Below are positions 3,661 through 32,222 of a stretch of 64,000 nucleotides of DNA, one piece after another. How positions within the stretch are numbered: position 1 is the first letter of the stretch; each line of letters starts with the position of its first letter. Location: the NCBI GenBank assembly GCA_965655095.1, contig OZ296649.1, positions 105,710,001 to 105,774,000 on the forward strand, given 5' to 3'. Source of the DNA: Haplodiscus bocki (lineage: Eukaryota). The translations under genes were made by a program, and so were the position numbers. The notes below the pieces were generated by a model. The model saw nothing but the letters and a program-made list of their open reading frames with translations. It ran no database searches and was not told the origin of the DNA.

Positions 3661-4005
3661 TAATGTGGAAGGTGAGGTGAGGAAGACGGATTAATAAATG
3701 GGGCCGCTGAAGTGGATACTCAGTAAAATCTATCTTTTTCCGACGCGATTTTTTCATGAAGTGTTCATCAGACTGCATTGATCCACTTGCCGTTCGGCTT
3801 TTCGCAGGTCGGAGTATTTGCTGATAGCCAGATCCTAATGTGGAAGGTGAGGTGAGGAAGACGGATTAATAAATGGGGCCGCTGAAGTGGATACTCAGTA
3901 AAATCTATCTTTTTCCGACGCGATTTTTTCATCAAGTGTTCATCAGACTGCATTGATCCACTTGCCGTTCGGCTTTTCGCAGGTCGGAGTTTTTGCTGAT
4001 AGCCA
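3661..4005. repeat. Tandem duplication of a ~170-bp unit (period 175) immediately left of the Polinton
   Basis: 3661-3830 (taatgtggaaggtgagg...gctgatagcca) is repeated at 3836-4005 after a gatcc spacer, nearly identical. Confidence 0.95.
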
Positions 4006-4058
4006 AAAATCTCCATCTTCATACGTTTTACTAAAGAGGTCATTTTGCACTTGGAGGT
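3931..4058 (+). repeat. Left copy of the 128-bp direct duplication flanking the Polinton
   Basis: atcaagtgttcatcagac...cacttggaggt matches 19222-19349 with 4 mismatches. Confidence 0.95.
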
Positions 4059-4098
4059 AGAATATGGGGGGGGTTGCCGCACAACTTCATGGCTCCCT
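4056..4098 (+). repeat. Left terminal inverted repeat (short, imperfect)
   Basis: ggtagaatatg(g)n ttgccgcacaacttcatggctccct versus the reverse complement of the right end, agtagtatatgtt(g)n ttgctgcacaacttcatggctacct. Confidence 0.9.
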
Positions 4099-4270
4099 AA
4101 ACTTTATCAAATATTTATTCAATTTTCGAACCAGAAAGGTTATTAAAGATGCCCAGCACACCGATATGGTTATGCTACAGTCAGAACAATGTATACAATT
4201 GGACCTTACCAACATTGACTACTGACGTTTGGCAAATTTCTCGAAGAAAATCAGAACATCAAACAGGATA

Positions 4271-4364
4271 GGCAGTGTGGCACAAGTGCTTGAGCCTGCA
4301 GTTCTGACCTCAGAGTACCCCGATTCGAGGCCCGATCAAATCACTTGTATTACACTGCTATTTT
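4271..4364 (+). ncRNA. Putative Pol III small RNA (VA/vault-RNA-like architecture)
   Basis: A-box-like TGGCACAAGTG at +8 (4278), B-box-like GATTCGAGGCC (4322-4332, one mismatch), ~20-bp terminal stem pairing 4271-4293 with 4336-4359, then TTTT at 4361-4364. Confidence 0.55.
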
Positions 4365-4581
4365 GATGGAATTGTGTAACTAACCAATTTTTTGAGAGAA
4401 AGGAGTAAATTACGTTGGAGATGAAACATTGAAGATACTTTTGTTGCAGGTAATTGATACACAGACAGCCAACAGAATATGAATAGAAATGTCCGAATCT
4501 TTGCCATAAATCACACGAACATCGTCATACGTTTAAGAATTAAGACATCCTAAACAAGAAAGAACACATCCAATGAGAGGG

Positions 4582-4824
4582 CGTGGGAATTTTTTTTTAT
4601 CTCTAAAATAGGTTGGAGAGTTTGTGAAAAGCTCAGATAAACTACTCGATCAAATGTGGCAAAGTGACTGATTTATCACCATCCATTATCTAATAAGTCA
4701 TTTTCCCACCTGTTCTAACGTTATCAATGGCTCAGATTTAACTAAAGAAAGGTTATTATCTTTCAAAGTCCGCACAAGGTACTTTTTAAACGCAACTTGC
4801 CATTAGAGATCATTTTCAAAAATG
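4582..4824 (+). promoter_or_regulatory. Putative promoter/enhancer of the first Polinton ORF (GATA motif cluster plus two GTGGGAA sites)
   Basis: WGATAA motifs (either strand) at 4597, 4635, 4673, 4686, 4721, 4756; CGTGGGAA at 4582 and TTCCCAC at 4703; start context cattttcaaaaATG identical to 17560-17573. Confidence 0.35.
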
Positions 4825-5607
4825 TCATCAAGAAAAGATTGCTCCATTGAACGAATGCGCTACCTAATATACGAAACCAACGAGATACGAACACAAAAAA
4901 TGTGGCACTCAACAGATGAAGAAGTGCTAGAACCAGTGGCCAGAAAAGAATTCAATCCCTTGATGACAACACCCCACCTGGTCGAAAGTCTCAAAAAATT
5001 CCTCAAATGGGCAATCGATTTTTCAAACTTGGAGTTTTCAGTGGCTCTGCATTTGAGAAGTGAGCAAGACTGTGACCGTTCAGAAGAAGACATTTGTCAT
5101 GAATTCGGGTGAATGCACTATCACTTGATATTTTACAGCACTAAATTCCCGAAGACCATGGATAACATTGTAAAAAAACTTCAATTTGGCACTGAAAGAA
5201 ACAATGGGACCAGACAACAGATACAAAGTTGAAATGTTTTCCATGAGTAGTTTAGGATTCCGGAGGGAATTTTTGAGACGTTATTGACACATGGGACAAC
5301 AATACAGCCCTATTTGAGCGCAATTAACCAATCCAGCCTTAAGAGTAATATTGACTGCATTTGGGAAAAAAGTCAAACGGCAGCATCTACCTACAGCAGT
5401 ACATTCAAGGCAGGAGTGTTGGAACAACTCGAGCAGCTTGAAAAATCACCAAGTCAATTCAAGCACACGGTACCCGACTTAATCAACTTTTTGGCACAGA
5501 ACAACTACGGGACTTTCACGGCGACAGAACACAGTTCCATATTACGAGTTTCTATCGACGTGACGGATGCACAATGCAACTACGAGAATGCTTTCAAACA
5601 ATTGTAG
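4822..5607 (+). pseudogene. Polinton ORF of unknown function, disrupted
   Basis: Same-strand ORF fragments 4822-5112 and 5284-5607, good start context; no recognisable motif. Confidence 0.55.
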
Positions 5608-5715
5608 CAAAGAAACTTCACCACAAAACACCTTTAAATATATTGACGAAGACACCGTCCTTTATGAGCACTCGTTTAATGAAATTTTTGGATAGCAAAC
5701 AGTTGTGTTTTAATC

Positions 5716-6158
5716 ATGTATCTCGATTGTAATTTTATTGAGCAAGTAATTCAAAACTTTCTGCAAGCACAAACACTTTTCCCCAGCTATCCAACGAGCA
5801 AAAACGCTTTTATTTCGGTTTGTATTGTTATTGATCCCAATAAAGACTTGGAACTGATCAACTCTCAGTGTGAATACGGCGGATTGATAGGACCGGGAAT
5901 AGTGAACTAAATTCTCTTTTGAAAGGTTTCAAATTGTTTCGCCTTCACGCCGCATTCCATGATGCTTTTGGTTTCATGAAGCAGCAGTACAACTTAGGAC
6001 CAGGCTACGTCTACACTCTCGGAGAAAAGCCACTTTTTAAAAACAATTGCCTTCTCGGACACCTTACAGGACTGTCTTTTTGGATTCACTTCAAATATTG
6101 TAGGGCCAAAACTTATAGAAAGTTTGCACACTCAATACAATTTTCAGAACCAATATAA
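5716..6158 (+). pseudogene. Parvovirus-type phospholipase A2-like (PLA2X) protein, frameshifted
   Basis: YGGLIGPG Ca-loop-like motif followed, after a frameshift near 5910, by LHAAFHDAFG with the HD dyad; PLA2-like genes are known in adintoviruses. Confidence 0.6.
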
Positions 6159-6397
6159 ACTCTACCTCGAAATTGTCTACGAATCGTGTGCCTCCCAAAC
6201 AAACTATAGGGTAAGACATTTGACCCCACTCACATTGGACGAGCTTCTTCATTTGACAGAGGCATCAAAGATCATCTGTTCGACACTGCAGTACAATCAC
6301 CACTATCTTGCGCGATACAATTTTTCGAATGACCACCACCCATGAAAATGCAGTAAAAATGGAATAGATCAATCGGACAATGCCATCACTGTGACAC

Positions 6398-6640
6398 GTG
6401 GTAGCATTATTTTTGACAGCGCTGAAAACGAAAGACCTCCATGGCAAATCACATGCTGCTGCTTCGAGAGACAGTGAGAGATCACTTCTGGTATTGTTGC
6501 TACACTATGGAATAATACTGCTGGTTGTCTCTGCCAGCATTGTCTTTCTCTTCTTCAGCAACGAGAACAAAAGCAGCATAGCACTAGTTGCCATCATATC
6601 AGCGTGCTTTGGGTATATCATATTTTCGCCAAGGCAATGA
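6398..6640 (+). CDS. Small two-transmembrane protein
   Basis: Two hydrophobic stretches (LLVLLLHYGIILLVVSASIVFLFF; IALVAIISACFGYIIF); its stop overlaps the ATPase start (ATGA 6637-6640). True start uncertain. Confidence 0.6.
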   Translation: MVALFLTALKTKDLHGKSHAAASRDSERSLLVLLLHYGIILLVVSASIVFLFFSNENKSSIALVAIISACFGYIIFSPRQ

Positions 6641-7324
6641 ACAAAATCATTAGCACCGATCCCCATTGTTTTATGATGGTGGTGGGGCCCTCCGGCTCGG
6701 GCAAGACTCATCTGGTCTTGCAGTTATTGAAACAACATCGTGAAATTTTTAGACCAAATTTCGAACAATTTTTGTTTTTCTACAATCAATTTCAGCCAGT
6801 GTACCAAGACTTGCAAATTGCCTTAGGCGCTGAAGCGTTCCAGCTTTGTCAAGGAGTTGACTGGCTCATGCCAGACAAAGTCACGGCAACCTACAAAGAG
6901 ACTCTCTTGATATTCGACGACGTTTTTCAAGACGTTTGTGGATCGAAGGAATTTCTGATTCTAGCTATATCTGGACGTCATCAAAAACTACACATGTTAG
7001 TTCTTAAGCACAACTTGTATCAACAGTCACCCAACTCGAAAACGATAGACTTGAACGTATCAGAAATGCTACTACTCCGCAACCCAAGGGACACAAACCA
7101 AGTTGCGTTTGTCGCAACTGGGGTGTCGCGAATTATTGCTCAGTGCATATAAAAGAGCAACACAAGAGCAGTTTGGTTATTTGCTCATTGATCTAGATCC
7201 ACGTCTGAACGAGCACCTACGTCTATCTTCAAACATACTCTCCAAACCAGCCATCTTCTTTTGTAGCTCCAGCGATAAAGTGATACCTATAAATGATTCC
7301 TTCACAGCATTTAATTATAATTGA
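6637..7324 (+). pseudogene. A32/FtsK-like genome packaging ATPase, frameshift near 7105
   Basis: Walker A GPSGSGKT, Walker B LLIFDD, SGRH motif, RNPRD, C-terminal FGYLLIDL in the second frame. Confidence 0.93.
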
Positions 7325-7644
7325 AACAATTTCATCATTCAAACCTATCCTAAGGAAGCATTTTATTCTGCATTGCAGTTAAAATTTTCTGTAACTGCAT
7401 TTTCAACATTAAGGAAGGTCGAATCGAACTGAAAAACGTTAACTTAATGTCATTAAAGAAGAACAAACTTCTCATTGAGAAGCTCTGTTCGAACGGAATC
7501 AAGTTTTGTCCCAAAAGACAGTTACTCGTCTCAAAACAAGGAACCAGTCTGTTGCGTCTGCTGAATAGTTCAATCTTGCGATGCCTGAAGCTGCAATGCT
7601 ATGAGCAACAAAACAGCCAAGAGGTATGTACTTGTTCCCGCTGA
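7293..7644 (+). pseudogene. Conserved small basic Polinton protein following the ATPase ('GasderminX'-type), 5' part frameshifted
   Basis: Frame from 7381 reads KIFCNCIFNIKEGRIELKN...KKNKLLIEKLC...KRQLLVSKQG, matching the CEC..N...G.I.L...K.K..L..L...K..LL.Q.G pattern and the usual gene position. Confidence 0.65.
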
Positions 7645-8197
7645 CCTATATTACGCCCAAGAGCAACGGTTCACATTCGACAAACCTCCGGAAGAGAAAA
7701 GGATTAGACTTTCTGAACAGCAGCTGGAGCAAGAAATAGTCGAAGCAGACGAAACTGTTCAAGAGAAAACATTGGACGCAACAAATAAAACAACCCTACT
7801 CAATGTCCTCGATCGCCTGAAGCCGACAACTGAAACGCAACACACAAGTTCAGGATCAATTAGCATAAACACAAAAATACAATCGGTCATCACCAAACTG
7901 ATTGAGTTGGGTCTCAGCAGCAGCAAGTTGGAGCGATCGCGAATCATACTCCAAGCATTTTTCAAAAATTCAAAATTCTCATTCAATGAGCAGCTGGATA
8001 TACTGTTGGAGGGCAGTGCAACTCAAGAGAATCTCCTAACCTTTCTAAGTAACCTACAAGTACCAAACAAGAAACTGAGCGAAACTGCCTTGAATATTTT
8101 GTCATCATTGCAAGTTAGCAAGCATATAATAGCAAACGTCAGAGGAAAAGATGTCGCTCAGCAGTTCTCAACAGTCACATGGATTGATCGTTTCTGA
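7601..8197 (+). CDS. Conserved Polinton hypothetical protein (KRYVLVP N-terminus), 198 aa
   Basis: Intact ORF; N-terminal K.(M/Y)VLVP motif typical of the gene lying before the integrase. Confidence 0.7.
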   Translation: MSNKTAKRYVLVPADLYYAQEQRFTFDKPPEEKRIRLSEQQLEQEIVEADETVQEKTLDATNKTTLLNVLDRLKPTTETQHTSSGSISINTKIQSVITKLIELGLSSSKLERSRIILQAFFKNSKFSFNEQLDILLEGSATQENLLTFLSNLQVPNKKLSETALNILSSLQVSKHIIANVRGKDVAQQFSTVTWIDRF

Positions 8198-9375
8198 ACG
8201 TTGCTTACGCTGGCTGGCAGAATGTGTTAGAACACTGATGGTTCGCGCATGAGTCGAGACAAATCCGGGGCCTGCTCTGAAATGTCACTGTTGCTCGAAG
8301 CGTTTGGGAAAAAGTACCAAGAAAAACCCTACAGTATGGTGTCATGTGTGCGGCTGGGTGCATTTCAAATGCGGTGGCTTGAGCAGCCCAAATGATTATG
8401 AAAAATCACACAACTTTCGATGCACTTGGTGCGCAAAAAACACAACTTGTCGCAAACGCCGACCCTTCTTATTTGCGTTTAAAAAAAATCTATACCACAC
8501 CCAACAATAAAGCAGCTTTCGGCTCGCGACAAGCATTGATCAAGGCAGCACCAAAAGGAACAACGTGCAAACAAGTAGACAAATTTTTTAACAAAGCGAA
8601 ACCTACACAAAGTTTCGAGCTAGTCGAAACAATTTTTCGCGTTTAAAAATTCAGTCCTACCGTATCAATGAAATTTGGTCGGGTGATTTGGCGGACATGC
8701 ATCAGTTGGCGCGACAAAATGACGGAACAAAATTTCTGCTGGTTTTTGTCGACTGTCTCAGCCGTTTTCTGCGGGTAGAACCGATAGAAGGCAAGTCCTC
8801 TAGCCACACAAGAAGCGCTCTACAAAAGATGTTGAAAAACCGCCAGAAAAAAAATGGGTGGACAAGGGCAAAGAATTCAAAGGTGACTTCGCTCGGTTCT
8901 GCGCGGAAAAGGACATTGTCGTTTATAGCACACACAGTGAAATGAAGTCTTGTTTCGCCGAACGCTACATTAGGACATTGAAATCAATTTTGTTTAAATT
9001 CCTACACGAAAACGACACAAGTCGGTACATTGATCATCTCCAAAGCTTTGTCAGTCTCCTCAACTCCCGTCCCAACAGAACAACGAAGATCGCCCCAAAA
9101 AGTGTTACCATCCACGACGTTCCATACTTGGTGTCTCTGTCAACAATTGCAAACTCTGTTCGCAAAGCCCGATACAAAATTGGTGACACTGTTCGAATAC
9201 GGTTACGCGTCCCAACGTTCCACAAAGGCTACAAAATCCAATACACCGAAGAAGTTTTTGAAATTGTAGCAAATCCAACACTGAACCCACCGTCCTACAA
9301 CATCAAAGACAAAAGTGGTCAGATATTGAGGGCAATTTTTATGAGCCAGAATTAGTTTTGTTCCGCTGCAGTTAG
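8151..9375 (+). pseudogene. rve (DDE) integrase with N-terminal 2A-like leader and PHD finger; several frameshifts
   Basis: MSLSS...LMVRA*VETNPGP-ALKCHCC...WCHVCGWVHFKC...CTWC, then YTTPNNKAAFGS, WSGDLADM (D), VDKGKEF (D), FAERYIRTLK (E), YKIGDTVRI, FHKGY, FYEPEL; stop at 9373-9375. Confidence 0.92.
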
Positions 9376-9391
9376 GCAGCAGGCTCCTTCG

Positions 9392-10315
9392 ATGATGTCG
9401 GATACAACCACTTTTACAATCAACATAGTTTCCAATGGTTCCATGGGATTGTTTCCAACAAACACTATGGCTCAGTTCACTACCCTATTGCCGCAAAAGA
9501 TTAAACTATACGGAGGAGAGTGGGAGGTTGCATTGCTGGAAGCATCATGGCCAGCCAAAGTCAAAAACATTACAAACGCAGCCTTTACAGTCTGTCGATT
9601 TGATGCTGTCGCAAACAGAATAACTAGGCCGCAGCACAATCAATCAATACCAGACGGTTTTTATCCCACGACTGACAGTATCATGAGAAAATTATTGGAC
9701 GAAATATACGTCAATCGGCGTGATCACGACATCAGCATTGATCCGCCGCCGCCGCAGTCCGTATCGTGGCAAGTTGACCCGGTGACAGAGAAGCTACAGA
9801 TTCGTTTCAGCTGCCAGACACTTAAAGATCAATTTTTGCTCTTTTTCAAATCTGATGACCTCAGCAGTACATTGGGCATAACCGAAGTCATTCGCTGCAC
9901 GCTGAATGGCAGTGACGGAAACAAACAAGCGTCGACTCGCATAGCAGCGCAAGGTACCTACCCAGTAGATTTACAAGGCGGCCGCCACACAATGTTTTTG
10001 TACTGTGACTTGATTCAAAATGGAATTTTGGGAGACGCCCAAACGTCACTCCTGAGAGCCATCCCACTGGATACATCAACACGATCTGCCATTTGTTCGA
10101 AAACGTTCTATAAATTGCAATGGAAACCAATAAACAAGAAAAATTTTGAATCGATAACCATTACTCTGTGCGACGAGAGTGGACAGTTGATGCCTTTTGT
10201 AAGCGTAGGCCGAACTAACCTTACCCTAGCATTTCGACGCCGCAAATCATTCGCTCAACATTCAGGTTTCTGCGCAGTTGTTGCGAGCTTGTTTTGCTGC
10301 TCCGCCAACCGATAA
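9392..10315 (+). CDS. Minor capsid protein (penton-like single jelly roll)
   Basis: SNGSMGLFPTNT.AQFTTLLP..I.L.GGEWEVAL N-terminus and LYCDLI...GD...LLR.IP...I.I.L.DE.G C-terminus typical of Polinton minor capsid proteins; 3' end may be a read-through extension. Confidence 0.88.
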   Translation: MMSDTTTFTINIVSNGSMGLFPTNTMAQFTTLLPQKIKLYGGEWEVALLEASWPAKVKNITNAAFTVCRFDAVANRITRPQHNQSIPDGFYPTTDSIMRKLLDEIYVNRRDHDISIDPPPPQSVSWQVDPVTEKLQIRFSCQTLKDQFLLFFKSDDLSSTLGITEVIRCTLNGSDGNKQASTRIAAQGTYPVDLQGGRHTMFLYCDLIQNGILGDAQTSLLRAIPLDTSTRSAICSKTFYKLQWKPINKKNFESITITLCDESGQLMPFVSVGRTNLTLAFRRRKSFAQHSGFCAVVASLFCCSANR

Positions 10316-10317
10316 AA

Positions 10318-10811
10318 ATGGACATTTATTATGCATCTCAAATGGCTAGTACCTTTCAAGGTCCCACGAGACGGTTTGGTTCGGGCGCAGGAATCGGCGC
10401 TTTTGTTCTGCGAGTGGGGCTCACAGGAATGCCCTTGTTGAAAAAGTATGTGGGCCCGTTTGTGAAACAAGTCGGACAAAATGTGTTGGAGGCCGCTTTA
10501 CCTGAAGTTGTCAGTCTGATTCAAGGCAAAAAGAAGTTTAAAAGAACCGTTGAAGATGGCACAAAAAAGCGTTGGCAAAAACTCGCGCCACGGCAGGCAA
10601 CGCGCTGGCGGGCGGCGTGCTGGCGGGCGGCGGAGGGCCGTCAGGTCCCAGAAAATGGAAGCTCAATACAGATGGTGCTAGTTTGCCGCCGACGCCGAGT
10701 CGCCGCAGATCTGCCGCCGCCAAAGACCTAGTCATTTCTCACAAAACGAAGTCAAAGAGGAGTCGGGTTGACATTTTGGCCAACGTGAAATTCAATGGCA
10801 GCAGACAATAA
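10318..10811 (+). pseudogene. Core/membrane-active virion protein (YY..Q..F.G...G.G.G family) with basic tail; frameshift near 10570
   Basis: MDIYYASQ...FQGPTRRFGSGAGIG, amphipathic helix, then LAGG-VLAGG and an Arg/Lys-rich tail; lies between minor and major capsid genes. Confidence 0.75.
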
Positions 10812-12166
10812 AGATGAACGGCAATAGTCGGATTAGCAACAACTCTTCAGTTTCACGGAAGAGCAAGTGAGGTTGCAAACCCTGTTATTCACTGTGCTTT
10901 GGACTTTTTGGAACGATCATCAGTGTTGATAAACTACGAGGGCTCCCACGACCAAGAAGTTTTTCCTCAAAGAGGTTGCCGTTGGCCACAACTTGATTTT
11001 GTGGTCACGTCTGACAACCGAAATTTAATTGACCCAAACAAAATTATTTTGGATTTGGAATGTGCTATTTGTGAGGCGGACGGCAAAACAACCGCACAGG
11101 GTATGTCACCAGTGTGCTTCAGCAACAATACCCTCCATAGTTTATTCTCACACGCTGAGTTATTTTTGAATGGTATCCTGATTTCCTCAAGCAACAATGC
11201 TTACCATCATTCTGCTTTTGTCGAAACGGAATTGACTACGGACTTAAATGCCAAGGCGAAATGGGCCGAAACCCAAAGCTACCAATATCAAGCCGACAAA
11301 AGTAACGAAAAAAGTGTGAATGAGTGGAATGAGGAAATGATAAACAATGGGAAAAAGAACCAAAAACAAGCTGAAACTTAATGGGGCGCCGCACATTAGA
11401 CTTTTTTGAATGCGAAAAAGTATTATTGCCAGGGGTGACGCTCCATCTACGCCTACATAGGTCGAGGAGTGTTTTTGCACTGACGTCTGTGGCCACAAGT
11501 GAAGACAAGTTCGTGCCCGTGATTGAAAGGGCATCGTTGTTTGTGACGAAATTGATTGTTAAAGATTCTGTACGATTGTCGATAGAGAAGGCACCTCTGA
11601 ACACACCGGCACATTGCCCCTACATTGAAATGATGAACAAAAGTTTCATCATTCAAGCTGGTCAAAACAGTTTTGTCAAGGAGAACTTGTTTGGAACGGA
11701 CCCAGTTAGAAGACTCACTCTTTGCATGACAACGAACGAACAATTCCGCGGGAAAAGCAACATGGATGCATTCCACTATCAAACGTTTGGATTAGAGCGG
11801 CTAGAGATTACCGGCGGAAATGGTGTCCCAGTTCCTTGCACACCTCTCGACATGAGGAATGGAAGAATGAGAGCCTACTACAACTCAATTTGTTCTTTGG
11901 GCTTTGCAGCTGGCTCTGGAGGAAACGGCATACAGTTCAAAAACTTTGAGGCCCATTTTGTGCTGGTGTTCGACCTAACGTCTACGAGGGAGGCGTCAAA
12001 GAGCCTCACATTTTCCCCCGAGCTCACTGGAGACAGTCTCACATTGAAACTATCATTTAAACAAGCACTGGAAAAGACGGTTGAACTTTTGGTCATTGCC
12101 GAACGATTCAGTCAAACATTCATTGATTCGCAACGGAACGTTACCAAAAACTCACTACTTCAATAA
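10795..12166 (+). pseudogene. Major capsid protein (double jelly roll), frameshifted
   Basis: NNTLHSLFSHAELFLNG, Y...AFVETELT, KVLLPGVTLHLRL, FVLVFDLT, LKLSFKQAL...IDSQRNV motifs; frameshifts near 10825-10850 and 11375. Confidence 0.9.
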
Positions 12167-12179
12167 ATTGCTGCGGAGG

Positions 12180-12655
12180 ATGGACAATGTCACTTTGGAG
12201 CAATTTGCTCAGAGATGCAATCATTTGAGCGAAAAATTTTGTGGAGTGTGGAGCGCCGACAACTTTCCTGCAATGAAACAGGGAGATTCATTTCAAATAG
12301 TGAACACGGAACTGAGCTGTAGGCCTGGGCGACACTGGATCCTACTTTGCACACAAAAAGACTTTGCTCGACGTGGAAAAGCGGTCATTGTATTTGGGGA
12401 CAGTTTAGGGAAAAAACCAAAAACTTACAAAAAACTTTACTTGAGGCTACTTTGTTTGTATGACAAAATTATTGCTGTCAACCATCCTCTTCAGAGTCGT
12501 TTCTCCAACTGCTGTGGACTATATTGCATCTACCTTTCACATCGAATAACAAAAAGATTGCAAAAACATTGCCAAAGAGGATGGTTGATGAACTATCGCT
12601 GGTGCGTTTCATTAATCACCATTATAAGACTGATTATAGTTTTGAAGCTGTTTGA
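12180..12655 (+). pseudogene. Adenain-family maturation cysteine protease, frameshift near 12565
   Basis: F.GV.SAD, IVNT...PGRHW (His), DSLG (Asp), LQ....CCGLYC (Gln/Cys). Confidence 0.92.
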
Positions 12656-12665
12656 CTTGACTAAT

Positions 12666-13171
12666 TCAGTCTTCTTGGTTTTCCACATCCTGCTCCTCAA
12701 CCACGCTCAACTCGGTGTCGCCGTCATCGTAAGGATTAGTAGTAGAAATTGTAGTAGTAGAGTCATAACTGTCATCAGAATTAAAATTAGTATTTGGTCC
12801 GTGTTCCTCTTCGGCTTCACTAAGAATAAAAGGACATTTCGCTTGCGTACAACCGGCATCATCATCGCCAAATTTTGAAAGATTGTCAAAATCCACAATG
12901 TTGGATGATGACAATTCATCCTCATCGTCAGATCGCGGAATGAATCCAGGGCCTAAAAGGTGAAACGTAATCAAAACCAAAATCATGAGCAAAACGGCAA
13001 TACAAAAATTTGAAGCCGTACAGAATCTAGCAGAAGTTGACACAAGGGAAACAGTGTCCTGTTCGCTTTTTGCAGGTTCCTTATACGATGGTGATATATC
13101 AGGAGAAACTGTCGTCGTCGCGTCCAGATTGTCGTCAGAGCTTTCTGATTCCGTGCAAGCGCTGGGCAAAT
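12666..13171 (-). CDS. Acidic Ser/Thr-rich single-TM protein, probably a spliced 3' exon
   Basis: 167-codon open frame with TM FCIAVLLMILVLITFHLL, no ATG start, preceded on the minus strand by a pyrimidine tract and CAG (ttttctcgtctttttacag, 13190-13172). Confidence 0.55.
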
Positions 13172-13222
13172 CTGTAAAAAGACGAGAAAATTTGGAAAAA
13201 TTGCATATGCAATGATGAAATT

Positions 13223-16200
13223 TTATTGAGTATTCGTTTGGTTGAGGGAGTAATGACCGTGGGCAAGGGATTGAATTCCACCATCCAATAGAAAACGTTT
13301 GTCGTCGAATGCACTCAAAGCGGTTTTTTTATTCGAGTCACCATATTTTGATGCTGCTGAGACTGAATCTGAGCCACAGATCTTTCAATGTTGTTTTTTT
13401 CCGCCAGAATTTCAGTGAAGATATCGTGATGTGGAGTTTTTTTGACAACCTTTTGGATGCCTTTGGCGCTCTGTTTCAAACCCGTTTCAAGCTTGATACT
13501 TTAAAGTTTGGAACGAAGGCAGGTGCACTCAAGCATCACTCTTCCATTCTACTCGTCTTTCATTGTGAGAGGAACTTTTTTGTTGGTCGGGTCATATAAC
13601 TTGTGCGTTTTTGGATAATCAGACAGATCAAGCGAATTCTTGAAGGATTCCATGTCTGAGCACAAGTCTGTTTGAATACGCTATAAAAGGGAGTCGGTGT
13701 ATTTCTAAACAACTGTGAGGCTGCTTCCAAATCTTGGTTTCATTTCATTGTAATGGAAGTGGTACAGAAATATTTTGGATAAATCTAGTATTGCTGCTCC
13801 GACAGGTGTGGGCGTATTCCAGAAAATTGACGATTGCGTTAAGTTGACAGATACGAGAGTGTTGTGAGTAATTTGGAAGTTTAGAAAGTTGGGTTTGTGT
13901 GTGCACACCTTGGCCTCCATTGGAGTAGACAAGAACTTAGTTTGTCTACGGTTTCTCAGATTCTCCATTGTTTTGCCATAACAAGCGTTCGAGAGCAGTT
14001 TGAAAAAGTTTTTGTCAAAGTCAGTATGGGCATTTTTCCTCATTTCGGTATTTTTTGAATTATATGTTCCCAACCAACAGCTTTGATCAAACTGTAAAAC
14101 GCGATGCAGCTTGGTTACTGTTAAGCCTTGTTCGACATGAAACTTCAAGTTTCTAAAGTGGCAAACGTAGAAAAATTTATGAAAAAGAGTTTCGACAAGT
14201 TTCGCTAGCCCCGAAGTCGGGTACCCGAAAGATGTAGCATAGTCTGACAACCATCCACTTTTTACAATCAATTTTTCAGGAGCCAAAGGCAAATCGTTAT
14301 GAGAATCGTGTAAACTGCTTGGGTACTGCAGCTCAACTTCGACAAAGAAACCCACCCCACCAAAGGAGTCTGTATTCAAAATGTCATCGATTGTTAAGTC
14401 TGTTCTCCATTTATAATTACCCAATGGAAGAGGTTGTTGCATTGTTCCGGCATTTAAGGGGGTGACATCAAAAAAAGCGCCGTACACGGAAGGCTTGGAG
14501 GAATCGAAATTGGTCATTTATTTTTTGTTAGCTTTGAAGTGTCTCAAGGCACCGGTTCCACTGATACCGCCACGTGTACCTCGTTCACAAAAAAGAAGCA
14601 TGTCAATATCAGTCAAAAGTCCGAGTTCCACTTTAGTACTGATGAGCATTCCTTCCCAGCTGAAATTTTGAGCTGAATAGAAATGAGCAGGATCGAGTCG
14701 ATACTCTTTCAAGCCAACTCCGCGAAAAGCTTCGATGATATCTGCGAGAAGATACGCATCAAGAGTCAAATACAGGTCATGGTAGTCACCGAAGTTTTTG
14801 CACTCCATCAAATCGTATATTTCTTTTGCTTTTTCATATTGCTCTTCGGTAATATCAACATTCCCCGTTAGGCTATTTGTCCAAGAACTTCCATAGTCAG
14901 GGAACGGCGCATCAAACTTCTCAAAACTATCCAAACAGCTGTAAGGGAAGTAACCTTTCCCTCGAATTTTTTCAAAATTATCATCGCTCAGAGATGAAAT
15001 TTTTTTGCCGCAGGTACAGAAGTTTAGAAGTCGCCATTGTCTTTGCTAAACCTTCAAGACTTTGAGACATGAATTGAAAGCTGTCCAGAAACCTGATTTC
15101 GCGGTACAAAGGAACAACTCTCCCGTCTTTGCACGTGTACTGTGAAACTTTCATGCGAAGGCTGAAGGAGATATAAACCTCATCTGTGCGGCTGATGGCC
15201 GAAAGTTTCTCATCTGGCAACAAGATCAGTTGCTTTACAATGTGGTGAGCGTCATACATCGAGAGATTGTGGAAAAACACTGGAAGGAAGCGTTTAGTTC
15301 TTGCTTTGAGATTGCATTTCGAGTGAGCTACACCAATGATTTTTCCTGAAGAATGACAGTGATGAACAACTCGGCGGGCTTGAACCACTTCACCGCAGAT
15401 GCAACATTTTTCTCCGTTTGCTGCGTCAGTCATCTGCTTTTACTGTTGCGAGCTGATCACATCACTCAAATATCTGTATTTTTGAGTTTCCGAGTCACAC
15501 CACGCAAGCCACCTTCGAAGCCGATTCATCAGTTTACTGATGCAGTCTTTGCCACGATAGAGGGATTCTGCAACCACAGAGTTGGTTCGACAATCAACCA
15601 GAATAGCACCGTAGCTTGCGGGATATTGTTTTTCAATAATAACAGTCTTTTTCCCTTTTTTTATATCTGCTGGAACGTTTAGCGCTTCCAAGTCAGCATA
15701 CACAACAAACGGGCATTTTTGGGTTTTTTCCCAATTGTTGAACTTCAATTTTAAATCTTCGTTGGGTATAAGAATTCTCAATAGCTGGTTGTCCTCGCAC
15801 AGTCTGACATGATCACGGTACTTAACTTTGCCAATTGATTTCATACAATTAACACAAAATTTCGTTTGGGGACCTTTCATAGTTTTCCGCGGAGAACGGC
15901 ACAAGGTATGCATGAAATGTTGAAAATTTGTTATGAGACAATAATGAGAGTTAAGACCGTCTGTTAGCAGCAAGAGAAACACTTTTCGAATTTTGGATTC
16001 TACTTTACTTCGATGACAACATGTTAGGCTTTCCTTTTCATCAAAATTGAAAACTGTTATCGAAAGTTGGGTTTTATTCTCAAACTGTGCAATATCGCTT
16101 AAATTCATTGGCATGGCCGATTTGTCGAAAATAAGTCGATGGAATTTATCTTTGTACATGGATGGTCTCTCCCGATTTTGTCTACAGAGGTACAGAAAAG

Positions 16201-17001
16201 CCAGGATGCAGTAGATGAAGCAAAAATTGTCGAAGAGGTTTTTGATATTGAGGAGGCTGAGGCGTAAGCTGGAAAGTTTAGCAGGCGTTAGCAGGTAAGA
16301 ACTACCAGCAAGCGATTTGGTTTTACAAATCTTGATGTCCAAGCATATAAGCTTTTCAAGTACCCAACCTGAACCACCAGAGCAGAAAACGTTCAGCTGC
16401 CTTAAGACTTGGTCTACCAGTTCATCAAAATCTTCATCATCGATAGACTCCACTACACGCATTAAGAAAAATGAGGGGAAACGGTATCCGCATCCAAGGG
16501 TTTTGACAATTTAACTTGAAGACAAAGACCAACACGCGATATGCCTTGGTTAATTATTTCCCTATCAATGAGAGCGGCAATATTTGCACGGTTTTTCATG
16601 ACAAAAGACATCGGGTCAACATCCTTTTGTTGGACGTCCAGCTTCAAAATTTTGAAGTGAGGTTTAAGGGCTGAAACAACTTTTGAAACTTGTGGCACGG
16701 AGACCCAATTGGTTTCTTTTCTCACTCTTGAAGGAATGGAAGGGTGTTCGTGCGAAATATGATTTTGGAGACTTGATTCATTTCCATAAATTTTGGGACA
16801 TGCATTGCAGCGCATATTTTTGGAAAACTTATGAACATTGCGAAGGTGTCGTAATAAATTCTTCGAGGCAGTGAAACTACTATTACAATGCCCAGAGATG
16901 AATGTGCATAGCGCCGGCTCACGCCTATGAGTTTCCCGAATATGTGTAAATAGCCTTCGCTTGTTTGGGGATGAGAATGAGCAGTCAGGGCAGGGAAACA
17001 T
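13223..17001 (-). pseudogene. Protein-primed family B DNA polymerase with N-terminal C2H2 fingers, GSGW domain and endonuclease VII insertion
   Basis: C2H2 fingers (CPDC..H...H; CNAC..H...H), SGGSGW, VYADLE exo I, C.IC...HCH.SG...G.AH..CN EndoVII, FHNLS.YD, FLDS, KLLSNACYGK motif B, mutated motif C (*KYTDS), C-terminal DGGIQSLAHGHY; many frameshifts. Confidence 0.96.
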
Positions 17002-17570
17002 TTTGCAGAATACCTCAGTCAAACATCACAGGAAGCAAGAAAATGATGGGTGAAAACGTTTGATTGTGAAAAGATCGATATAAACATTCGCAACTCGGAA
17101 CTATTTTTCAAATAGAAATCTTTTTCTTTTTCACCCATCAAGAGATAGTTTATTGCTTTAAGTAACAGAGCTTGGCAGCTGTTCTTGGTAGATAAATGGG
17201 TCTCTAAAGGCTATTTAGTGGTTATTGACTAGTTGAACCTAAATCGAAATTCAGTCTTATCGAAGTTATATGCTTCATATATATCGAAAATGTTCACAAG
17301 ATCTGCCAAAATGTCTCAGGCGGGGCAAGCATTTGACACTATCAAGGGAAAAGCCGGGTCTCCTTTTCCATTTTGGGATTATGGACTGCCTCAGGGTAAT
17401 AAAATATATTGGTTTTGTTCTAACCGAAGTCAGGATAGGGCTAATCGCCTGTTCCGGTGAAGGTATATAAGTAGGTGCCATACTACAGCACGATTATTAG
17501 ATTGAACGATTTAAGTCATTTCAATAGAATCTATCAGCTCTCAATCCATCTACAGCCTACATTTTCAAAA

Positions 17571-18469
17571 ATGGACCGTTCTCTCGCAATTATTCTTCAC
17601 GAATCTCGAGAAGTCACCGTTCGTGAAATTGGCAACGAAGGCAACCCGGGGGAAATAAACATCAAAGTACTGAAGAAGAGAGTCGACGAATTTGGTGAAG
17701 CCGGTGGAGTCATTGGGATTGAGGGCACATTCCCTCAAATAGCGTTCACCAATTTGATGCGTATCAACTGGACGAAACTTTTCTTTTCAATGCTGGGAAT
17801 GTCTGAGGTGCCGGAGGACATGAAAGTTCCATCGCGGCCGGAGGATGATGTCGGTATCCGGAATGAATCCCGCAAAACATTGAAGACAATACTAGCAATG
17901 CAGAGGAAAGACTTTCGTAACTATAAGTGATATAGCATTCATCCTAATTTAAAGGAGTTTTATACTGAAGCTTCATCATTAGTTCAAGTATTGAATGAAT
18001 TGACTGTTTAGGGCACAGAACGGCATTTCGAGCGTCTGTCAATATGTTCAACAGCAACTGCCATACCAAGAAGTCGGTGTATGTGACCCTAAAAGCGTTC
18101 AAGTATTAAGCGGAATGGTCACAAGATACGAGAGTTGGGCAGGTCATCACTCTTCACCACTGCGAAATGATGAAACTTATACAAGAATACAATGCATACA
18201 TAGATGCGAGAGTGGCACGACTAGCAGAAGAGGATGCTGTGGATGAGAAAAGCGGCGGCGGCGACGGCCAAGAGGAGGAGGATGAAGAAAGGCCGATCGT
18301 TGTTTTTAAGCCGCCAGCAAAGAAACCAAGAAAGCCAACTGCGACCGCAACAACCAAGAGAATTACGAAAAAGGCACCGCTTAAACAGATAGAAAGCGTG
18401 GCGTCAAGCTCTACAGCCACTAACGTGCCACAAGAAACCCTGGAAATTACCCTTGACAGCGATGAATAA
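17571..18469 (+). pseudogene. Polinton ORF of unknown function divergent from pPolB, disrupted; acidic/basic low-complexity tail
   Basis: TATATAAG at 17464, cattttcaaaaATG at 17571, ORF fragments 17571-17930 and 18167-18469. Confidence 0.6.
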
Positions 18470-19169
18470 GATGGATTTATGAGATTATATAACTTTGAAG
18501 TTGGTTAATGGCCTATACATATATTCTCCATTTTACTTCAAATACTACCGACAATGAATTTATGAAGGAGAACAGTCTTTTTTCGGGCGAATGTATTCGA
18601 ATTAGCAAAAGTTAGTTGAAAATTTGAGAGAAAAGTGATTGAACTGAAACAGGATCGCGCAAAAATTAATGAGAACAAAAGTAGTATCTTATGGTCTCAA
18701 TTGGTTTCGATCGCCTGAAATGCAAAAGAGTTGAGTTTCAATTTGGTTTCAAAGCTGAAAATCGAATAAAAGATTCATTGGATGCGAAAATAAAACAGGC
18801 AGGAAAATTCAAAAGTTCAAAACCCTTTCCAATTTTGCTTTAGGAACGCGCCAACACTAGCGCGCCAAACCATTTGGTCCAGAATTCGCGACTTAAATGA
18901 AATCCCAGTGGAATAAACCACCAGGCTACAGGCACCATTGCTGTGAAATGAAACTAACCGATTACATATACAGCTCATCTGGGTAACGGCACCGTTTAAT
19001 AGTTCAACTGTATAAAGTAGAACAGCGTATAAATGAATATAAATGAACTGCAATCACAAAGAATATCTTTATGGCTTATGTAGCGGCTATATAATTTTTA
19101 GGTATTCACTCAGTATTTGATTTGTAATACTATATCGAGGACAAATGAAATGAAACACTAACGAAATTC

Positions 19170-19221
19170 AGGTAGCCATGAAGTTGTGCAGCAACCCCCC
19201 CCCCCCCCAACATATACTACT
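19170..19221 (-). repeat. Right terminal inverted repeat ending ...ACTACT
   Basis: Reverse complement begins AGTAGTATATG and matches the left TIR. Confidence 0.92.
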
Positions 19222-19349
19222 ATCAAGTGTTCATCAGACTGCATTGATCCACTTGCTGTTCGGCTTTTCGCAGGTCGGAGTATTTGCTGGTAGCCAAAAA
19301 TCTCCATCTTCATACGTTTTACTAAAGAGGTCATTTTGCCCTTGGAGGT
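19222..19349 (+). repeat. Right copy of the 128-bp flanking direct duplication
   Basis: Begins at the base immediately after the TIR; 124/128 identical to 3931-4058. Confidence 0.95.
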
Positions 19350-20870: not shown

Positions 20871-21826
20871 CTTCAGAATCAGCTTTTTAAAAATATCAGC
20901 CGAATGATATATTATAGCGTTTCTTATTTCGTTTGCGCAGGTATTGCATAGCACAGTTTTGCTTCTGTTTCAAGTCGTTCTTCTCGTAGACTATCAGTTC
21001 GATTGCGGGCCATTCAACGCTCAATTTGAATCCTGAGAAGTAGGATTGCTTTTTTTACTTTTTCGTTTGAAGCATCTATGTAAATTTTGCTCAAATTTTA
21101 CAAGAATGAATTGAGGAAATTTTGTCGGTGGGCTCATATAGCTTCTGCCTTTTTCACTTTCTTGGGAGCTGTGTGCGAAGCGCAGGATCATTTTTCTGTA
21201 TAATATGAAAGTGACTGTCTATGTTGTCTCTAACGTACCGTGGAGTTCTTGTGTTTTTTCTTGTGGCTCGCTTTTTTGTGGCTAATTAATTCAATACACC
21301 TTGTGGCTGCAATTTTTGTTTTCAGAAATTTTGGCAATTTTCCGATGTTTGACTGTATAACTTTATCCGTCTATTTTTGTTGAATATTTGCTCTCTCTCG
21401 ACCGTTGAATTTTCTCTGTATTCAATGTTGACTCTTTTTGTTACTTTTTCGGGTAGTTTGCAGAAAGCCGAAAATTGATCTAAAAAAGTCAATTCAATCG
21501 CTTAGATGTTGGAGCCTCGAGAGGTGCTTATTTTATGATGCGTGCCATAAGAAAATAATCACATTTTTTCCCACGTTGACCGTTTCGAACGCCGTTTCAA
21601 ATTGGGGACGTAACTCTCTCAACCATCGACTCCAAATCGCAACGAAATATGCTTGTGCTCTTATGTCGCGCCTGCGGTGATCAATGTCGCTCTCAATGTG
21701 TCAGTGGTAAACATTTTTGTTACACAATGGAAAATGATTTGGTGTCAGTGCATCCAACTAGATTCATCAGATCTTGCAGAAGCGACGGAACGGGCATTGA
21801 CACTCTTTTCAACGAAGCAACATTTG

Positions 21827-24800: not shown

Positions 24801-26352
24801 GATTTCAGGAAATAGACGTTAAAACTTTCGATTCAAACTTCGAAACATATTTGAAATAAAGTACTGTATTCTCGATCGACCCCGAACAGTGCAAAGACAG
24901 CAATGAAAGGTAAGTTTCACCTGGGCTAAAAGCATGTAGCTAAAAGAGTTTCCGGAAAGTCAATTCTGTTGCAAACTTACACCAAAATTATGTGTCATGT
25001 TTCCAAACTATAATAAGGTGTATTGTGCAGATGTTCAGGATTTCAACAAACAGTGAAACTTCACTGCAAACTGCTGATTCGATTGGGAATTGCTTTTGTT
25101 TTGAAACGACATCAAAAATGGTGACTGTAGTTTCCCGTTATCAACAGAAAAGCTGATATACAAAACTGTGCGAGTTCGGAAAGAAGATTTCAAACAGCAA
25201 AATGAAATTCTGACTCAACCAACTCTTGTTAAGAACTCTGTTCTTGCAAAAGTTTTGACCATCGAACCGTAAAAGTTGGAATTGATGTTTGCATCTAAAA
25301 ACACAAGAGTACAAATTCGATCCATATCGATTCCATTTTCGCGCAAATACCTGAGTTTTTCGGCAAAGTCTCATTGTAATCACGACAGCAATCTCAGCAA
25401 AGTACCATATATGTGGAAAGAATCCAACAAAACGTTTTTATTCAGCTTTTATAACAAAAAACTTGGGCAAAAGTTCTTTATACGAAGCAGTTTGACAGCA
25501 TTTATGAGCAACCAAAGTCCCAACACCATTGGAGTGTGAAAATAAAGTGCGTGAGAATAGTGTTCAGTACTGTTGCCACAAAAGCCAGCTCCAGTTTCAT
25601 TTTCATCAGTGGATTAATCGATGAAACACAAATGTATGATCCTAACGTGAAACGTTCACTTGATTTGAGTGAATACAAGAAACAGCACTGTCTAAACTTT
25701 CAAAAGTTCACCCAAACTGTTTCCAGTTACACATCAAAATATTCAAATATTCAGTTTGAATAAAGGGTCCGCAAATGTCAGTTCAAAATTTGGAAATGTT
25801 GATGCTTTGAAACAAAATACTGAGAATGATTATGAACAGTTATCGTCAGCATATCAGTTTTCAAAGTGTTTTTCGGCTTGTCTCTAAATTCACTTCAGTA
25901 TTCCACATCAAAGAGCATCAAAATAAAGGGCAGACATGAAGTTCTTGGTGCTGAATAGCGATTCGGGGCAAAAAATTTTAAAAATTGACTTCGAGAAACC
26001 ATATTTCAAAAATCATGAAAATTCCCGCTCCATTTAAACCGTTGCATTTTGATATTATGCGTTGAATATTTGTCTGGATAGTCGACTCAGCAAAATTTCA
26101 GGACTCACTTGGGACAATGAACACCGTGCACGTTTCCGTTTGCTTTCTGCTTTCCAATACCAAGAGAAGAGAGGCTTCTTGATCCTGTTTAAGGGTTGAA
26201 GTCCGCAGTGCTTTCCGAACTGAGAAGGTCCTCAAACGTTCAAAAGGTAGTGCACTTCAGAGGGTGACAAAGGGCGATGCAAATTTTAAGCAAGGCAGCG
26301 AGTGGATCTCGTAACTCTTAGTTTGCAACGCTTTTTGCCAATCTCTCAACTA
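21827..26352 (-). repeat. Left arm of a ~4.5-kb inverted duplication (runs into the N gap)
   Basis: Reverse complement of 27737-32222; mirrored ORFs in the track (e.g. 22655 + vs 31141 -, 25536 + vs 28327 -). Confidence 0.95.
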
Positions 26353-26552
26353 NNNNNNNNNNNNNNNNNNNNNNNNNNNNNNNNNNNNNNNNNNNNNNNN
26401 NNNNNNNNNNNNNNNNNNNNNNNNNNNNNNNNNNNNNNNNNNNNNNNNNNNNNNNNNNNNNNNNNNNNNNNNNNNNNNNNNNNNNNNNNNNNNNNNNNNN
26501 NNNNNNNNNNNNNNNNNNNNNNNNNNNNNNNNNNNNNNNNNNNNNNNNNNNN
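26353..26552. other. Assembly gap (200 N)
   Basis: Run of n characters. Confidence 1.
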
Positions 26553-26599
26553 CACCCTTGAGCGACCTCAAACTGAATGGTTTCAAGTAGATGCTGAGC

Positions 26600-31600: not shown

Positions 31601-32222
31601 ATTGGCACTACACCCCCCCTTATAATACTACTTATTTTGAAATTGGATCGATTCGAAAGTGAGTCTGTTGTTTTACGAGAAAAAAACCCTGATAGGCGGC
31701 ATCATTGATCGGCGACTAAAATAGAAAACAGAACCCTTAAAGTTTACATCGAATGTCTCACGCGACCCATCGGAAGTAGATACTTCAGTTCTGAGCAATT
31801 CAAACTTTTTTTATCTTTTAATCTGAGATATGTGACTCTAGGGCAGAAACTGTACATAAATAATTTATTTGATTGCCCAATTAACCGATTTGCTGACTGA
31901 CGCCAGTAAACACCATAAGTGTACTTTAATAATTACAGAAAACGCAGTCGCAAGTCCAATAGCGGAGGCCAACAATAGCGGAATACCATGAGCATTCTAT
32001 CCTCATTAGTGAAAAAACGTTGATGAAGCTTGGGAAAATAATATTGATTGACAATTCTAACCCTATTAGCCACTTAATACTGACTTCTAGGATCTTTTCT
32101 GTTACTTCCGCCAGCAGTTGTAGCCACCAGAATTTAACATGCGGAAACAAGTTCTGTGATTGGCTAAAATTCATTCTGCCGTGAGTAATGCTATCCCCCC
32201 TAACAGATGAAATATTGACACC
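27737..32222 (+). repeat. Right arm of the inverted duplication
   Basis: tagttgagagattggcaa...aatattgacacc is the reverse complement of the left arm. Confidence 0.95.

What the first reader, a model, noticed from the sequence alone, without database searches (positions are those of the whole stretch)
4271..4364. VA-RNA/vault-RNA-like Pol III hairpin gene inside the Polinton
Seen: a G-start ~94-nt unit with an A-box-like sequence starting exactly at +8, a B-box-like GATTCGAGGCCCG, 5' and 3' ends pairing over ~20 bp (GGCAGTGT/ACACTGCT, ACAAGTG/CACTTGT, TTGA/TCAA, with G-U pairs) and TTTT directly after the stem; no tRNA cloverleaf. Known: adenovirus VA RNAs and vault RNAs have this internal-promoter, terminal-stem, U-run layout; VA RNAs antagonise PKR and Dicer/RNAi; Polintons are related to adenoviruses. 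Inference: this family may encode its own small decoy/anti-RNAi RNA or pre-miRNA, which I am not aware of being described for Polintons. Caveat: the B box has a mismatch at the conserved G.
Basis: partly seen in the sequence, partly recalled or inferred. Interest (0 to 1): 0.8.

Follow-up and report, generated by a model that had tools for sequence, protein, structure and literature searches.

The report
Small hairpin-RNA gene in Polinton ends
Several distantly related families of virus-like jumping genes (Polintons) in one animal genome carry, just inside one end, a roughly 100-base unit laid out like a small hairpin-RNA gene read by RNA polymerase III, which suggests that they make their own small RNA as adenoviruses do, although no transcript has been seen.

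Summary
Window 4271-4364 lies 215 nt inside the left end of a decayed Polinton (4056-19221). It has a G start, a full A box at +8, a B-box-like motif with one mismatch, a 21-bp interrupted terminal helix, one free A and TTTT (fold z about -3). It is a fixed part of Polinton ends, not a SINE or MITE. Homologues sit 180-293 nt inside the left end of families A, B, D and E and inside non-coding palindromes with Polinton termini, while flanks between families are at shuffled-level identity. In 20 loci picked by protein rather than by the unit, 14 of the 18 with a left end passed a layout scan. Eight of these (families G, H) have the same layout in different letters, with compensated terminal pairs. 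It is neither a vault RNA nor a VA RNA by Rfam. Against: no expression data, weak folding in B and C, weak or absent B boxes in A, G and H, and no unit in family F. Best reading: a Polinton-borne, tRNA-like Pol III hairpin RNA that acts through shape, most likely as a small-RNA-pathway decoy. Function is inferred.

The parts
4271..4364 (+). Candidate Pol III hairpin-RNA gene, 94 nt, from G1 to the U-run
   Evidence: only hit of the layout scan in the window on either strand
4271..4288 (+). 5' arm of the terminal helix; the most conserved part (72-93% identical between families over nt 1-30)
   Evidence: partly inflated because B, C, D and L094 were found with an 18-nt pattern from this arm
4278..4288 (+). 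A box at +8, 11 of 11 to TRGYNNARNNG
   Evidence: sequence; consensus from PMC12498455; exact in 18 of 22 A, 35 of 36 B, 9 of 9 C
4294..4297 (+). Inner helix, 5' side (pairs with 4328-4331)
   Evidence: paired cells 0.98 young A, 0.94 B, 0.69 C; one two-sided change, in family D
4323..4331 (+). B-box-like motif, 8 of 9 to GWTCRANNC, 34 nt after the A box
   Evidence: full match in 0 of 22 A, 31 of 36 B, 5 of 9 C, 6 of 7 young E
4334..4342 (+). Second B-box-like site, 9 of 9, seen only in family A
   Evidence: 9 of 22 A copies, 0 in B, C, D or L094
4342..4359 (+). 3' arm of the terminal helix; sequence varies between families while the register is kept
4361..4364 (+). T4 run (Pol III terminator-like) after one unpaired A
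   Evidence: T4 in 16 of 22 A, 35 of 36 B, 1 of 9 C; 7 of 7 young E
4056..4125 (+). Left terminal inverted repeat of the Polinton; the unit lies outside it
   Evidence: (I9); no unit seen in the last 525 nt of the right end (read by eye)
4056..19221 (.). Host Polinton (family A), with genes broken by stops and frameshifts
6478..7152 (+). Packaging-ATPase-like ORF (Pox_A32)
   Evidence: PF04665, 25.2 bits against cut-off 22.8
8592..9355 (+). Retroviral-type integrase, in two frames
   Evidence: rve E 7e-6, below the curated cut-off
13705..15439 (-). Protein-primed-type DNA polymerase B, in pieces
   Evidence: DNA_pol_B_2, 31.5 bits against cut-off 25.8
19143..19221 (-). Right terminal inverted repeat

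Best explanation
The unit is a small gene that this group of Polintons carries 200-420 nt inside the left end. It has tRNA geometry: a 7-bp acceptor-like stem, an A box at +8, often one free base, then a U-run. Host TFIIIC and Pol III would read it from the internal boxes and stop at the U-run, giving a 94-106-nt RNA. Its two ends close a long interrupted helix with a short 3' U tail around a variable apex. Families keep this shape and layout while changing the letters, so the RNA most likely works through its shape, as an abundant substrate or decoy for host double-stranded-RNA handling (export, Dicer, Argonaute loading), blunting small-RNA defence against the element as adenovirus VA RNA does. 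Shown: layout, position, spread, kept pairing register, lower substitution rate than flanks. Inferred: transcription (I put it near 0.7 for active ancestors), tRNA origin, decoy action.
For: (1) Position is fixed. A terminus lies 180-241 nt upstream in 18 of 22 A copies and 222-293 nt upstream in 36 of 36 B copies, and 238-246 nt upstream in 7 of 7 young E copies. (2) A and B proteins are only about 23-65% identical and flanks between families are at 0.47-0.60 against 0.52-0.53 shuffled, but unit nt 1-30 is 0.72-0.93 (young versus old A not counted as between families). (3) The 17 outer pairs of the window fold are paired in 0.94 (young A), 0.86 (old A), 0.75 (B), 0.76 (D) and 0.61 (C) of cells against at most 0.60 for slid registers. 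Young E gives 0.83 over 21 register pairs against at most 0.46. (4) Unbiased set: of 20 loci picked by a Polinton protein, 18 have a left end and 14 pass the layout scan, all on the + strand. Shuffled DNA gave 9 hits in 2.48 Mb. (5) G and H units are not alignable to A, B or E (z 0.4-2.6) yet fold with z -3.2 to -5.8 (0 of 100 shuffles in each of 9 copies). They use different paired letters at terminal positions 4, 5 and 7. The T4 lies only on the + side. (6) Substitution rates in A (picked by a 300-nt search) are 0.13, 0.24, 0.20 and 0.16 across the unit against 0.24-0.32 in flanks. In B they are 0.025-0.062 against 0.069-0.114. (7) Non-coding palindromes with Polinton termini keep the unit and a second, divergent unit with an 11 of 11 A box, a 9-bp closing stem and T4. 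(8) Precedent: VA RNAs are Pol III hairpins with internal A and B boxes whose terminal stems bind Dicer (PMC2777419 passages).
Against: No transcript evidence exists. B boxes are imperfect: 0 of 22 A copies have the full core at the main site, and no full core was found on either strand in the first 900 nt of the 11 G, H and I ends scanned, whereas 6 of 6 host vault RNAs have it. B and C fold no better than shuffles overall (mean z +0.1 and -0.3). The end-to-end duplex beats shuffles at p<=0.05 in 20 of 36 B, 2 of 8 old A and 0 of 9 C. Among non-Watson-Crick pairs, A-C mismatches are about as common as G-U pairs, so the pairs do not favour RNA over DNA. G copies have a T4 inside the unit (3 of 3). 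T4 is at the short end of host terminators (5 of 6 vault genes end in T5-T6). Only 1 of 9 C copies has T4 (7 of 9 have T3). The most abundant family, F, lacks it in about 11 kb of left end in 3 copies. The two I copies and two D copies fail the layout scan. Whether the host has PKR, or a Dicer pathway that targets Polintons, was not tested.
Confidence: 0.5

Rival explanations
1. The unit works in cis as a tRNA-gene-like chromatin barrier or open-chromatin seed. TFIIIC and Pol III bound near the end shield the first Polinton promoter from silencing, and any RNA is a by-product.
For: It always lies between the terminus and the first genes. tRNA genes and TFIIIC sites act as barriers in yeast (PMC7990762 passages). 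Family F, which lacks the unit, has a full B box in a tRNA-T-arm-like stretch in its terminal repeat in 3 of 3 copies.
Against: A barrier rests on the B box, which is the weakest conserved part. It does not need a long end-to-end helix, yet that helix is kept with changed letters.
Confidence: 0.2
2. The unit is a BLV-type Pol III pre-miRNA whose 5' strand acts by sequence. In families A-E, unit nt 1-10 equals miR-34-5p nt 2-11, so a start at the A at -1 would give a miR-34 seed mimic.
For: 10 of 10 match to the snail and fly miR-34-5p row in PMC7328434. A at -1 in 18 of 22 A and 35 of 36 B. Position 3 keeps C in B, C, D and E although it faces an A. BLV makes pre-miRNAs from type-2 promoters (PMC4378190 passages).
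Against: G and H have unrelated 5' ends. No host miR-34 was confirmed: no Rfam hit over cut-off, 0 hits, 12 three-mismatch hits against 27 control, and 1 doubtful hairpin among 20 of 26 gapped-pattern hits folded. Host tRNA-Leu genes begin with nearly the same letters, which could explain the match. B folds weakly for a pre-miRNA.
Confidence: 0.12
3. The unit is a DNA-level inverted repeat (paired protein sites, or a single-strand hairpin) used in replication, packaging or integration, and the Pol III look is incidental.
For: In G, H and I the two arms are near-mirror copies of one 8-nt motif. Both strands fold equally. There is no G-U excess. Non-coding palindromes that must be moved in trans keep it.
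Against: G start, A box exactly at +8, a 7-bp closing stem and a one-sided T4 recur in unrelated letters. In the palindromes it lies 3.4-4.8 kb from the nearest terminus. It was not seen at the window's right end.
Confidence: 0.13
4. It is a neutral relic of an old tRNA-derived SINE or MITE insertion that was simply inherited.
For: The 5' 27 nt resemble host tRNA-Leu (z 1.7-5.1 over four Leu genes and seven units). Many copies are decayed.
Against: No free-standing copy was seen. Of 60 new loci from the pattern search, 42 were B-type, 7 C, 2 D, 1 E and 8 chance 18-mers. The unit outlasts its flanks and the layout recurs in G and H.
Confidence: 0.04

Closest known systems
Adenovirus VA RNA I/II
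   Same: Internal A and B boxes, hairpin with terminal stem, U-run, carried by a related kind of DNA virus (PMC2777419 and PMC4378190 passages; the Polinton-adenovirus kinship is recalled).
   Different: 94-106 nt rather than about 160. No Rfam match. No conserved apical or central domain (apical pairs 0.21-0.59 outside young A). It sits next to the terminus. Expression and function are not shown.
Bovine leukaemia virus Pol III pre-miRNAs
   Same: Type-2 promoter with the A box inside the 5' arm, ends set by start and U-run, degenerate boxes tolerated.
   Different: Here the B-like motif lies inside the hairpin, not past the terminator. There is one unit rather than a cluster, the stem is more interrupted, and the carrier is a DNA element.
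Vault RNA (Rfam RF00006)
   Same: About 100 nt, closing stem, internal boxes, U-run. The host has six such genes.
   Different: No match to the model. The 5' part is not alike to three host vault RNAs (z -0.2 to 2.1). The A box is at +8 rather than +9/+10, and the B box is weaker.
Murine gammaherpesvirus 68 tRNA-pre-miRNA chimeras (TMERs)
   Same: Virus-borne Pol III RNA of tRNA-like build (PMC4378190 passage).
   Different: No cloverleaf here and no separate downstream hairpins.
tRNA-Leu (host CAG/AAG genes)
   Same: A box at +8, 7-bp closing stem, one free base. About 20 of 27 5' letters are shared with A-E units.
   Different: No anticodon or T arm. The 3' part is mostly not alike (z mostly below 2.5). 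Only Leu, Arg, Thr and Lys were compared.

Membership tests
Type-2 Pol III gene | A box TRGYNNARNNG near the 5' end | tested here: met
   11 of 11 at +8 in the window; 18 of 22 A, 35 of 36 B, 9 of 9 C; young E, G and H differ at one position
Type-2 Pol III gene | B box core GWTCRANNC 30-60 nt after the A box | tested here: inconclusive
   window 8 of 9 at 34 nt plus a 9 of 9 site 11 nt further on; full in 31 of 36 B, 6 of 7 young E, 5 of 9 C; 0 of 22 A at the main site; none in G, H, I
Type-2 Pol III gene | Run of four or more T at the 3' end | tested here: met
   window 4361-4364; 16 of 22 A, 35 of 36 B, 7 of 7 young E, 9 of 9 G/H; but 1 of 9 C
Type-2 Pol III gene | Pol III-dependent transcript | not testable with these tools
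   no RNA holder listed; the runs laid were contigs
Adenovirus VA RNA | Match to the Rfam VA model | tested here: not met
   no VA hit at E<=10 in 4100-4500, nor in the loci scanned
Adenovirus VA RNA | About 160 nt with conserved apical stem and central domain | tested here: not met
   94-106 nt; apical region not conserved; the domain names are recalled, the length is from PMC4378190
Adenovirus VA RNA | PKR inhibition or Dicer squelching | not testable with these tools
   needs bench work
Vault RNA (RF00006) | Score over the family cut-off | tested here: not met
   no hit at the unit, while six host genes score 39-51 bits
Vault RNA (RF00006) | Association with vault particles | not testable with these tools
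   needs bench work
tRNA | Cloverleaf with anticodon and T arms | tested here: not met
   ARAGORN and Rfam find none
tRNA-derived SINE or MITE | Dispersed free-standing copies with tails or target duplications | tested here: not met
   every true homologue among the loci fetched lies in a Polinton-like end, a Polinton-ended palindrome or arrays and fragments of these; 167 two-mismatch hits were not listed and not examined
miR-34 family | Seed identity in a processed 22-nt RNA | tested here: inconclusive
   letters match, processing unknown, no match to RF00456, host miR-34 not confirmed
Polinton/Maverick (the carrier) | Terminal inverted repeats, polymerase B, integrase, packaging ATPase | tested here: met
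   the integrase hit is below the curated cut-off; capsid and protease ORFs gave no Pfam hit

The most novel reading that the evidence does not exclude
Animal Polintons commonly encode their own Pol III hairpin RNAs, kept by structure across families and hoarded by their non-coding palindromic parasites. These RNAs are working counterparts, and possibly a source, of adenovirus VA RNA and suppress host small-RNA defence.
Probability: 0.3. Interest if true: 0.9.

Novelty: new variant of a known kind. Interest (0 to 1): 0.72.

Why it matters
Virus-made Pol III RNAs are described from adenoviruses, gammaherpesviruses and some retroviruses (PMC4378190 passages). Six full-text searches joining Polinton, Maverick, adintovirus or polintovirus with Pol III, VA RNA, B box, vault or small-RNA terms listed no paper whose title or abstract start describes one in a Polinton. 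Searches returned nothing. I read none of the listed Polinton papers, and subscription journals and supplements were not searched. If transcribed, this gives Polintons a first RNA-based counter-defence candidate and a testable lead on the origin of VA RNA. It also gives a simple layout rule (G start, A box at +8, closing stem, U-run, within 500 nt of the left end) that can be run over any Polinton library.

Tried and rejected
Expression: no RNA holder listed, which is no evidence either way. Two runs laid on 3900-5400 were contigs covering nearly the whole stretch and say nothing on RNA. Vault ancestry: rejected. Whole-length tRNA-Leu homology: the z of 5.8 came from a gene picked by a pattern resembling the unit, and chance 15-mer hits scored as high, so only a 5' resemblance is kept. 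Host-gene origin of the C1 53.1-Mb tandem array: it proved to be a piece of the C palindromes. Outside relatives: 49 viral-contig hits to a 15-mer were chance, there was no phage match, and no viral contig encoded a relative of the ORF at 11375-12163. The metagenome scan gave 2 hits, one chance and one family-B end (L213) that adds no evolutionary depth. The protein search gave 29 unnamed relatives. A tree of a 78-column protein did not resolve whether A, B and E form a clade. My first linking of L094 to genes in L116 was dropped because those group with family F. I first scored G, H and I as lacking the unit and reversed this. The Rfam mir-34 hit L169 is an unrelated AT-rich palindrome. Earlier-finding look-ups by place and sequence were empty. 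Rows dropped: L021, L060, L078 and L083 (insertions); L021 from the pair table; L013, L019, L021 and L068 from its rate table; L068; L248, L008 and L011 from the pair table.

Full report
Observation. The unit is at window 4271-4364 as described. It has a G start, an A box at +8 matching TRGYNNARNNG at 11 of 11, and a B-like motif at 4323-4331 matching GWTCRANNC at 8 of 9 (both consensus strings from passages of PMC12498455). A second 9 of 9 site lies at 4334-4342. The ends pair over 21 bp plus a 4-bp inner helix, followed by one free A and TTTT. It folds at -32.3 kcal/mol, z -3.0, with 3 of 200 shuffles as good. No tRNA or Rfam family matches.

Context. The carrier is a decayed Polinton at 4056-19221 with short terminal inverted repeats and ATPase, integrase and polymerase B remnants. 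The unit begins 215 nt inside the left end, outside the repeat and upstream of the first ORFs, on the same strand. It was not seen in the last 525 nt of the right end.

Copies. A 300-nt search gave 33 matches, of which 22 are family-A left ends. An 18-nt pattern gave 267 hits against 61 control, and the first 100 were listed. All but one of the listed places fall in loci I fetched. The 167 unlisted hits were not examined. Of 60 new loci, 42 were a second Polinton family (B and older relatives), 7 were group C, 2 were D, 1 was E and 8 were chance. B proteins are about 23-65% identical to A, and the B unit lies 222-293 nt from the terminus in 36 of 36 copies. Group C units lie inside repeats with no match to A or B proteins that form palindromes with arms up to 7.2 kb. 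In 3 of 5 examined these end in Polinton termini on both sides (one side decayed in one of them), in one case the first 223 nt of family B. C has 426 candidates, 40 scored, and the C1 tandem array derives from it. No free-standing SINE-like copy was seen.

Conservation. Between families, flanks are at 0.47-0.60 identity against 0.52-0.53 shuffled, while unit nt 1-30 is at 0.72-0.93. This is partly built in, because B, C, D and L094 were found with that arm. The apex (nt 31-50) is at background. The 17 outer pairs of the window fold are paired in 0.94, 0.86, 0.75, 0.76 and 0.61 of cells in young A, old A, B, D and C, against at most 0.60 when slid. Within A and B the substitution rate is lower in most of the unit than in flanks. 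Against this, 0 of 36 B and 0 of 9 C copies fold at z <= -2, and the end-to-end duplex is significant in 11 of 13 young A, 20 of 36 B, 2 of 8 old A and 0 of 9 C. The full B core is in 31 of 36 B, 5 of 9 C and 0 of 22 A at the main site.

Unbiased test. I picked 20 further loci by a small Polinton protein, choosing unseen classes from 150 scored hits. Eighteen have a left end. Seven (young E) carry a homologue 238-246 nt in, with a full B core in 6 of 7, fold z -1.6 to -3.5, and a duplex better than at least 98 of 100 shuffles in 7 of 7. The other 11 (G, H, I) showed no sequence match, but all have an inverted pair of an A-box-like motif 380-505 nt in. In G and H this is the same layout in other letters: G start, A-like box at +8, a 7-bp closing stem continued through the box, zero or one free base, TTTT, 100-106 nt, z -3.2 to -5.8. 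Terminal positions 4, 5 and 7 hold different complementary pairs from A, B and E. A layout scan, tuned after seeing these, passed 14 of the 18 ends, the window unit alone in 64 kb, and 3 of 3 B loci. It failed 2 I, 2 D, one deleted E and one G copy, and gave 9 hits in 2.48 Mb of shuffled DNA. It also found a second, divergent 119-nt unit in a C palindrome, with relatives in the 6 other C loci checked, of varying integrity. Whether G and H are homologous to A-E or convergent is open (z 0.4-2.6; tree unresolved). G, H and I have no full B core, and G has an internal T4. Family F (5805-7966 protein candidates, not all F) lacks the unit in 3 left ends, though its terminal repeat holds a full B box on the other strand.

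Origin. The host has six true vault RNAs and the unit is not one of them. Its geometry is that of a tRNA, and its first 27 nt resemble host tRNA-Leu more than Arg, Thr or Lys. The 3' part mostly does not, and only four isotypes were at hand. Unit nt 1-10 in A-E equals miR-34-5p nt 2-11 (one table row of PMC7328434). No host miR-34 was confirmed, and G and H do not share it.

Mechanism. Shown: layout, place, spread, kept register. Inferred: Pol III transcription from the internal boxes to the U-run, giving an RNA whose conserved trait is a long closing helix with a short U tail. Shape is kept while letters change, so I favour a decoy or substrate role towards host double-stranded-RNA handling, as reported for VA RNA terminal stems and Dicer (passages of PMC2777419; PMC4378190). 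Confidence is 0.5. Rivals are a tRNA-gene-like barrier (0.2; passages of PMC7990762), a DNA-level inverted repeat (0.13), a seed-acting pre-miRNA (0.12) and a neutral relic (0.04). There is no expression evidence either way.

Literature and earlier notes. Searches listed no paper describing such a gene in Polintons. I saw listings and abstract starts only, and supplements and most subscription journals were not covered. I saw passages of PMC2777419, PMC12498455, PMC4378190, PMC7990762, PMC5694971 (shrimp miR-34 antiviral; not relied on) and PMC7328434. Four unchecked notes of this scan report similar units in Polintons of other genomes. They are leads, not support.

Verdict. This is a real, conserved feature. 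It is laid out like VA RNA but is not a member of the VA or vault families. It is a new variant of a known kind, with interest 0.72.

Noticed in passing
L041:1501-1626, L044:1501-1633, L045:1501-1636 (G000 C10, C4, C1): Three of six host vault-RNA hits carry a whole tRNA-like cloverleaf inside their central loop (tRNA model 45, 58.4 and 36.8 bits nested in vault hits).
   Followed up: no
L098, L099, L100 and flanks (G000 C1 105.1, 122.8, 126.1 Mb): Non-coding palindromic elements of about 10-15 kb whose ends are Polinton termini (family B in one, family I type in two). They look like non-autonomous passengers with borrowed ends, 426 candidates for the unit region.
   Followed up: partly
L099:6784-6902 (+) and its mirror: A second Pol III-like unit in the palindromes, 119 nt, about 475 nt upstream of the first and divergent: 11 of 11 A box at +8, 9-bp closing stem, T4, -46 kcal/mol.
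   Followed up: partly
L220:8500-8620, L221:8455-8570, L222 about 8510 (- strand): Family F terminal repeat holds a tRNA-T-arm-like stretch with a full B box and a T-run downstream; no significant fold.
   Followed up: partly
window 3931-4058 and 19222-19349: The Polinton is flanked by a 128-bp direct repeat with 4 differences instead of a short target duplication, and the left flank has a further tandem copy of about 170 bp.
   Followed up: partly
window 21823-32226: A 10.4-kb palindrome with arms 92-99% alike; 1.8 kb of it is 74% alike to the arm of one C palindrome, but its ends differ.
   Followed up: partly
window about 51800-64000: Tandem array with a unit of about 1685 bp and two shorter 1135-bp units.
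   Followed up: no
L055, L092; G000 C1 53.11-53.15 Mb, C12 53.57-53.60 Mb, C11 58.55-58.58 Mb: Tandem arrays built from family-B left ends (3.3 and 1.84 kb periods) or from C-element pieces, each repeat carrying the unit.
   Followed up: partly
L230 about 1500-1555: A hairpin beginning with a miR-34-type seed, present twice in the assembly; poor pairing at the seed and no Rfam score.
   Followed up: partly
L114:350-620 and L214-L222: Family F Polintons are larger, with more than 11 kb left of the shared small gene, an inner terminus-like copy, and what reads by eye as a short cysteine-rich EGF-like frame.
   Followed up: no
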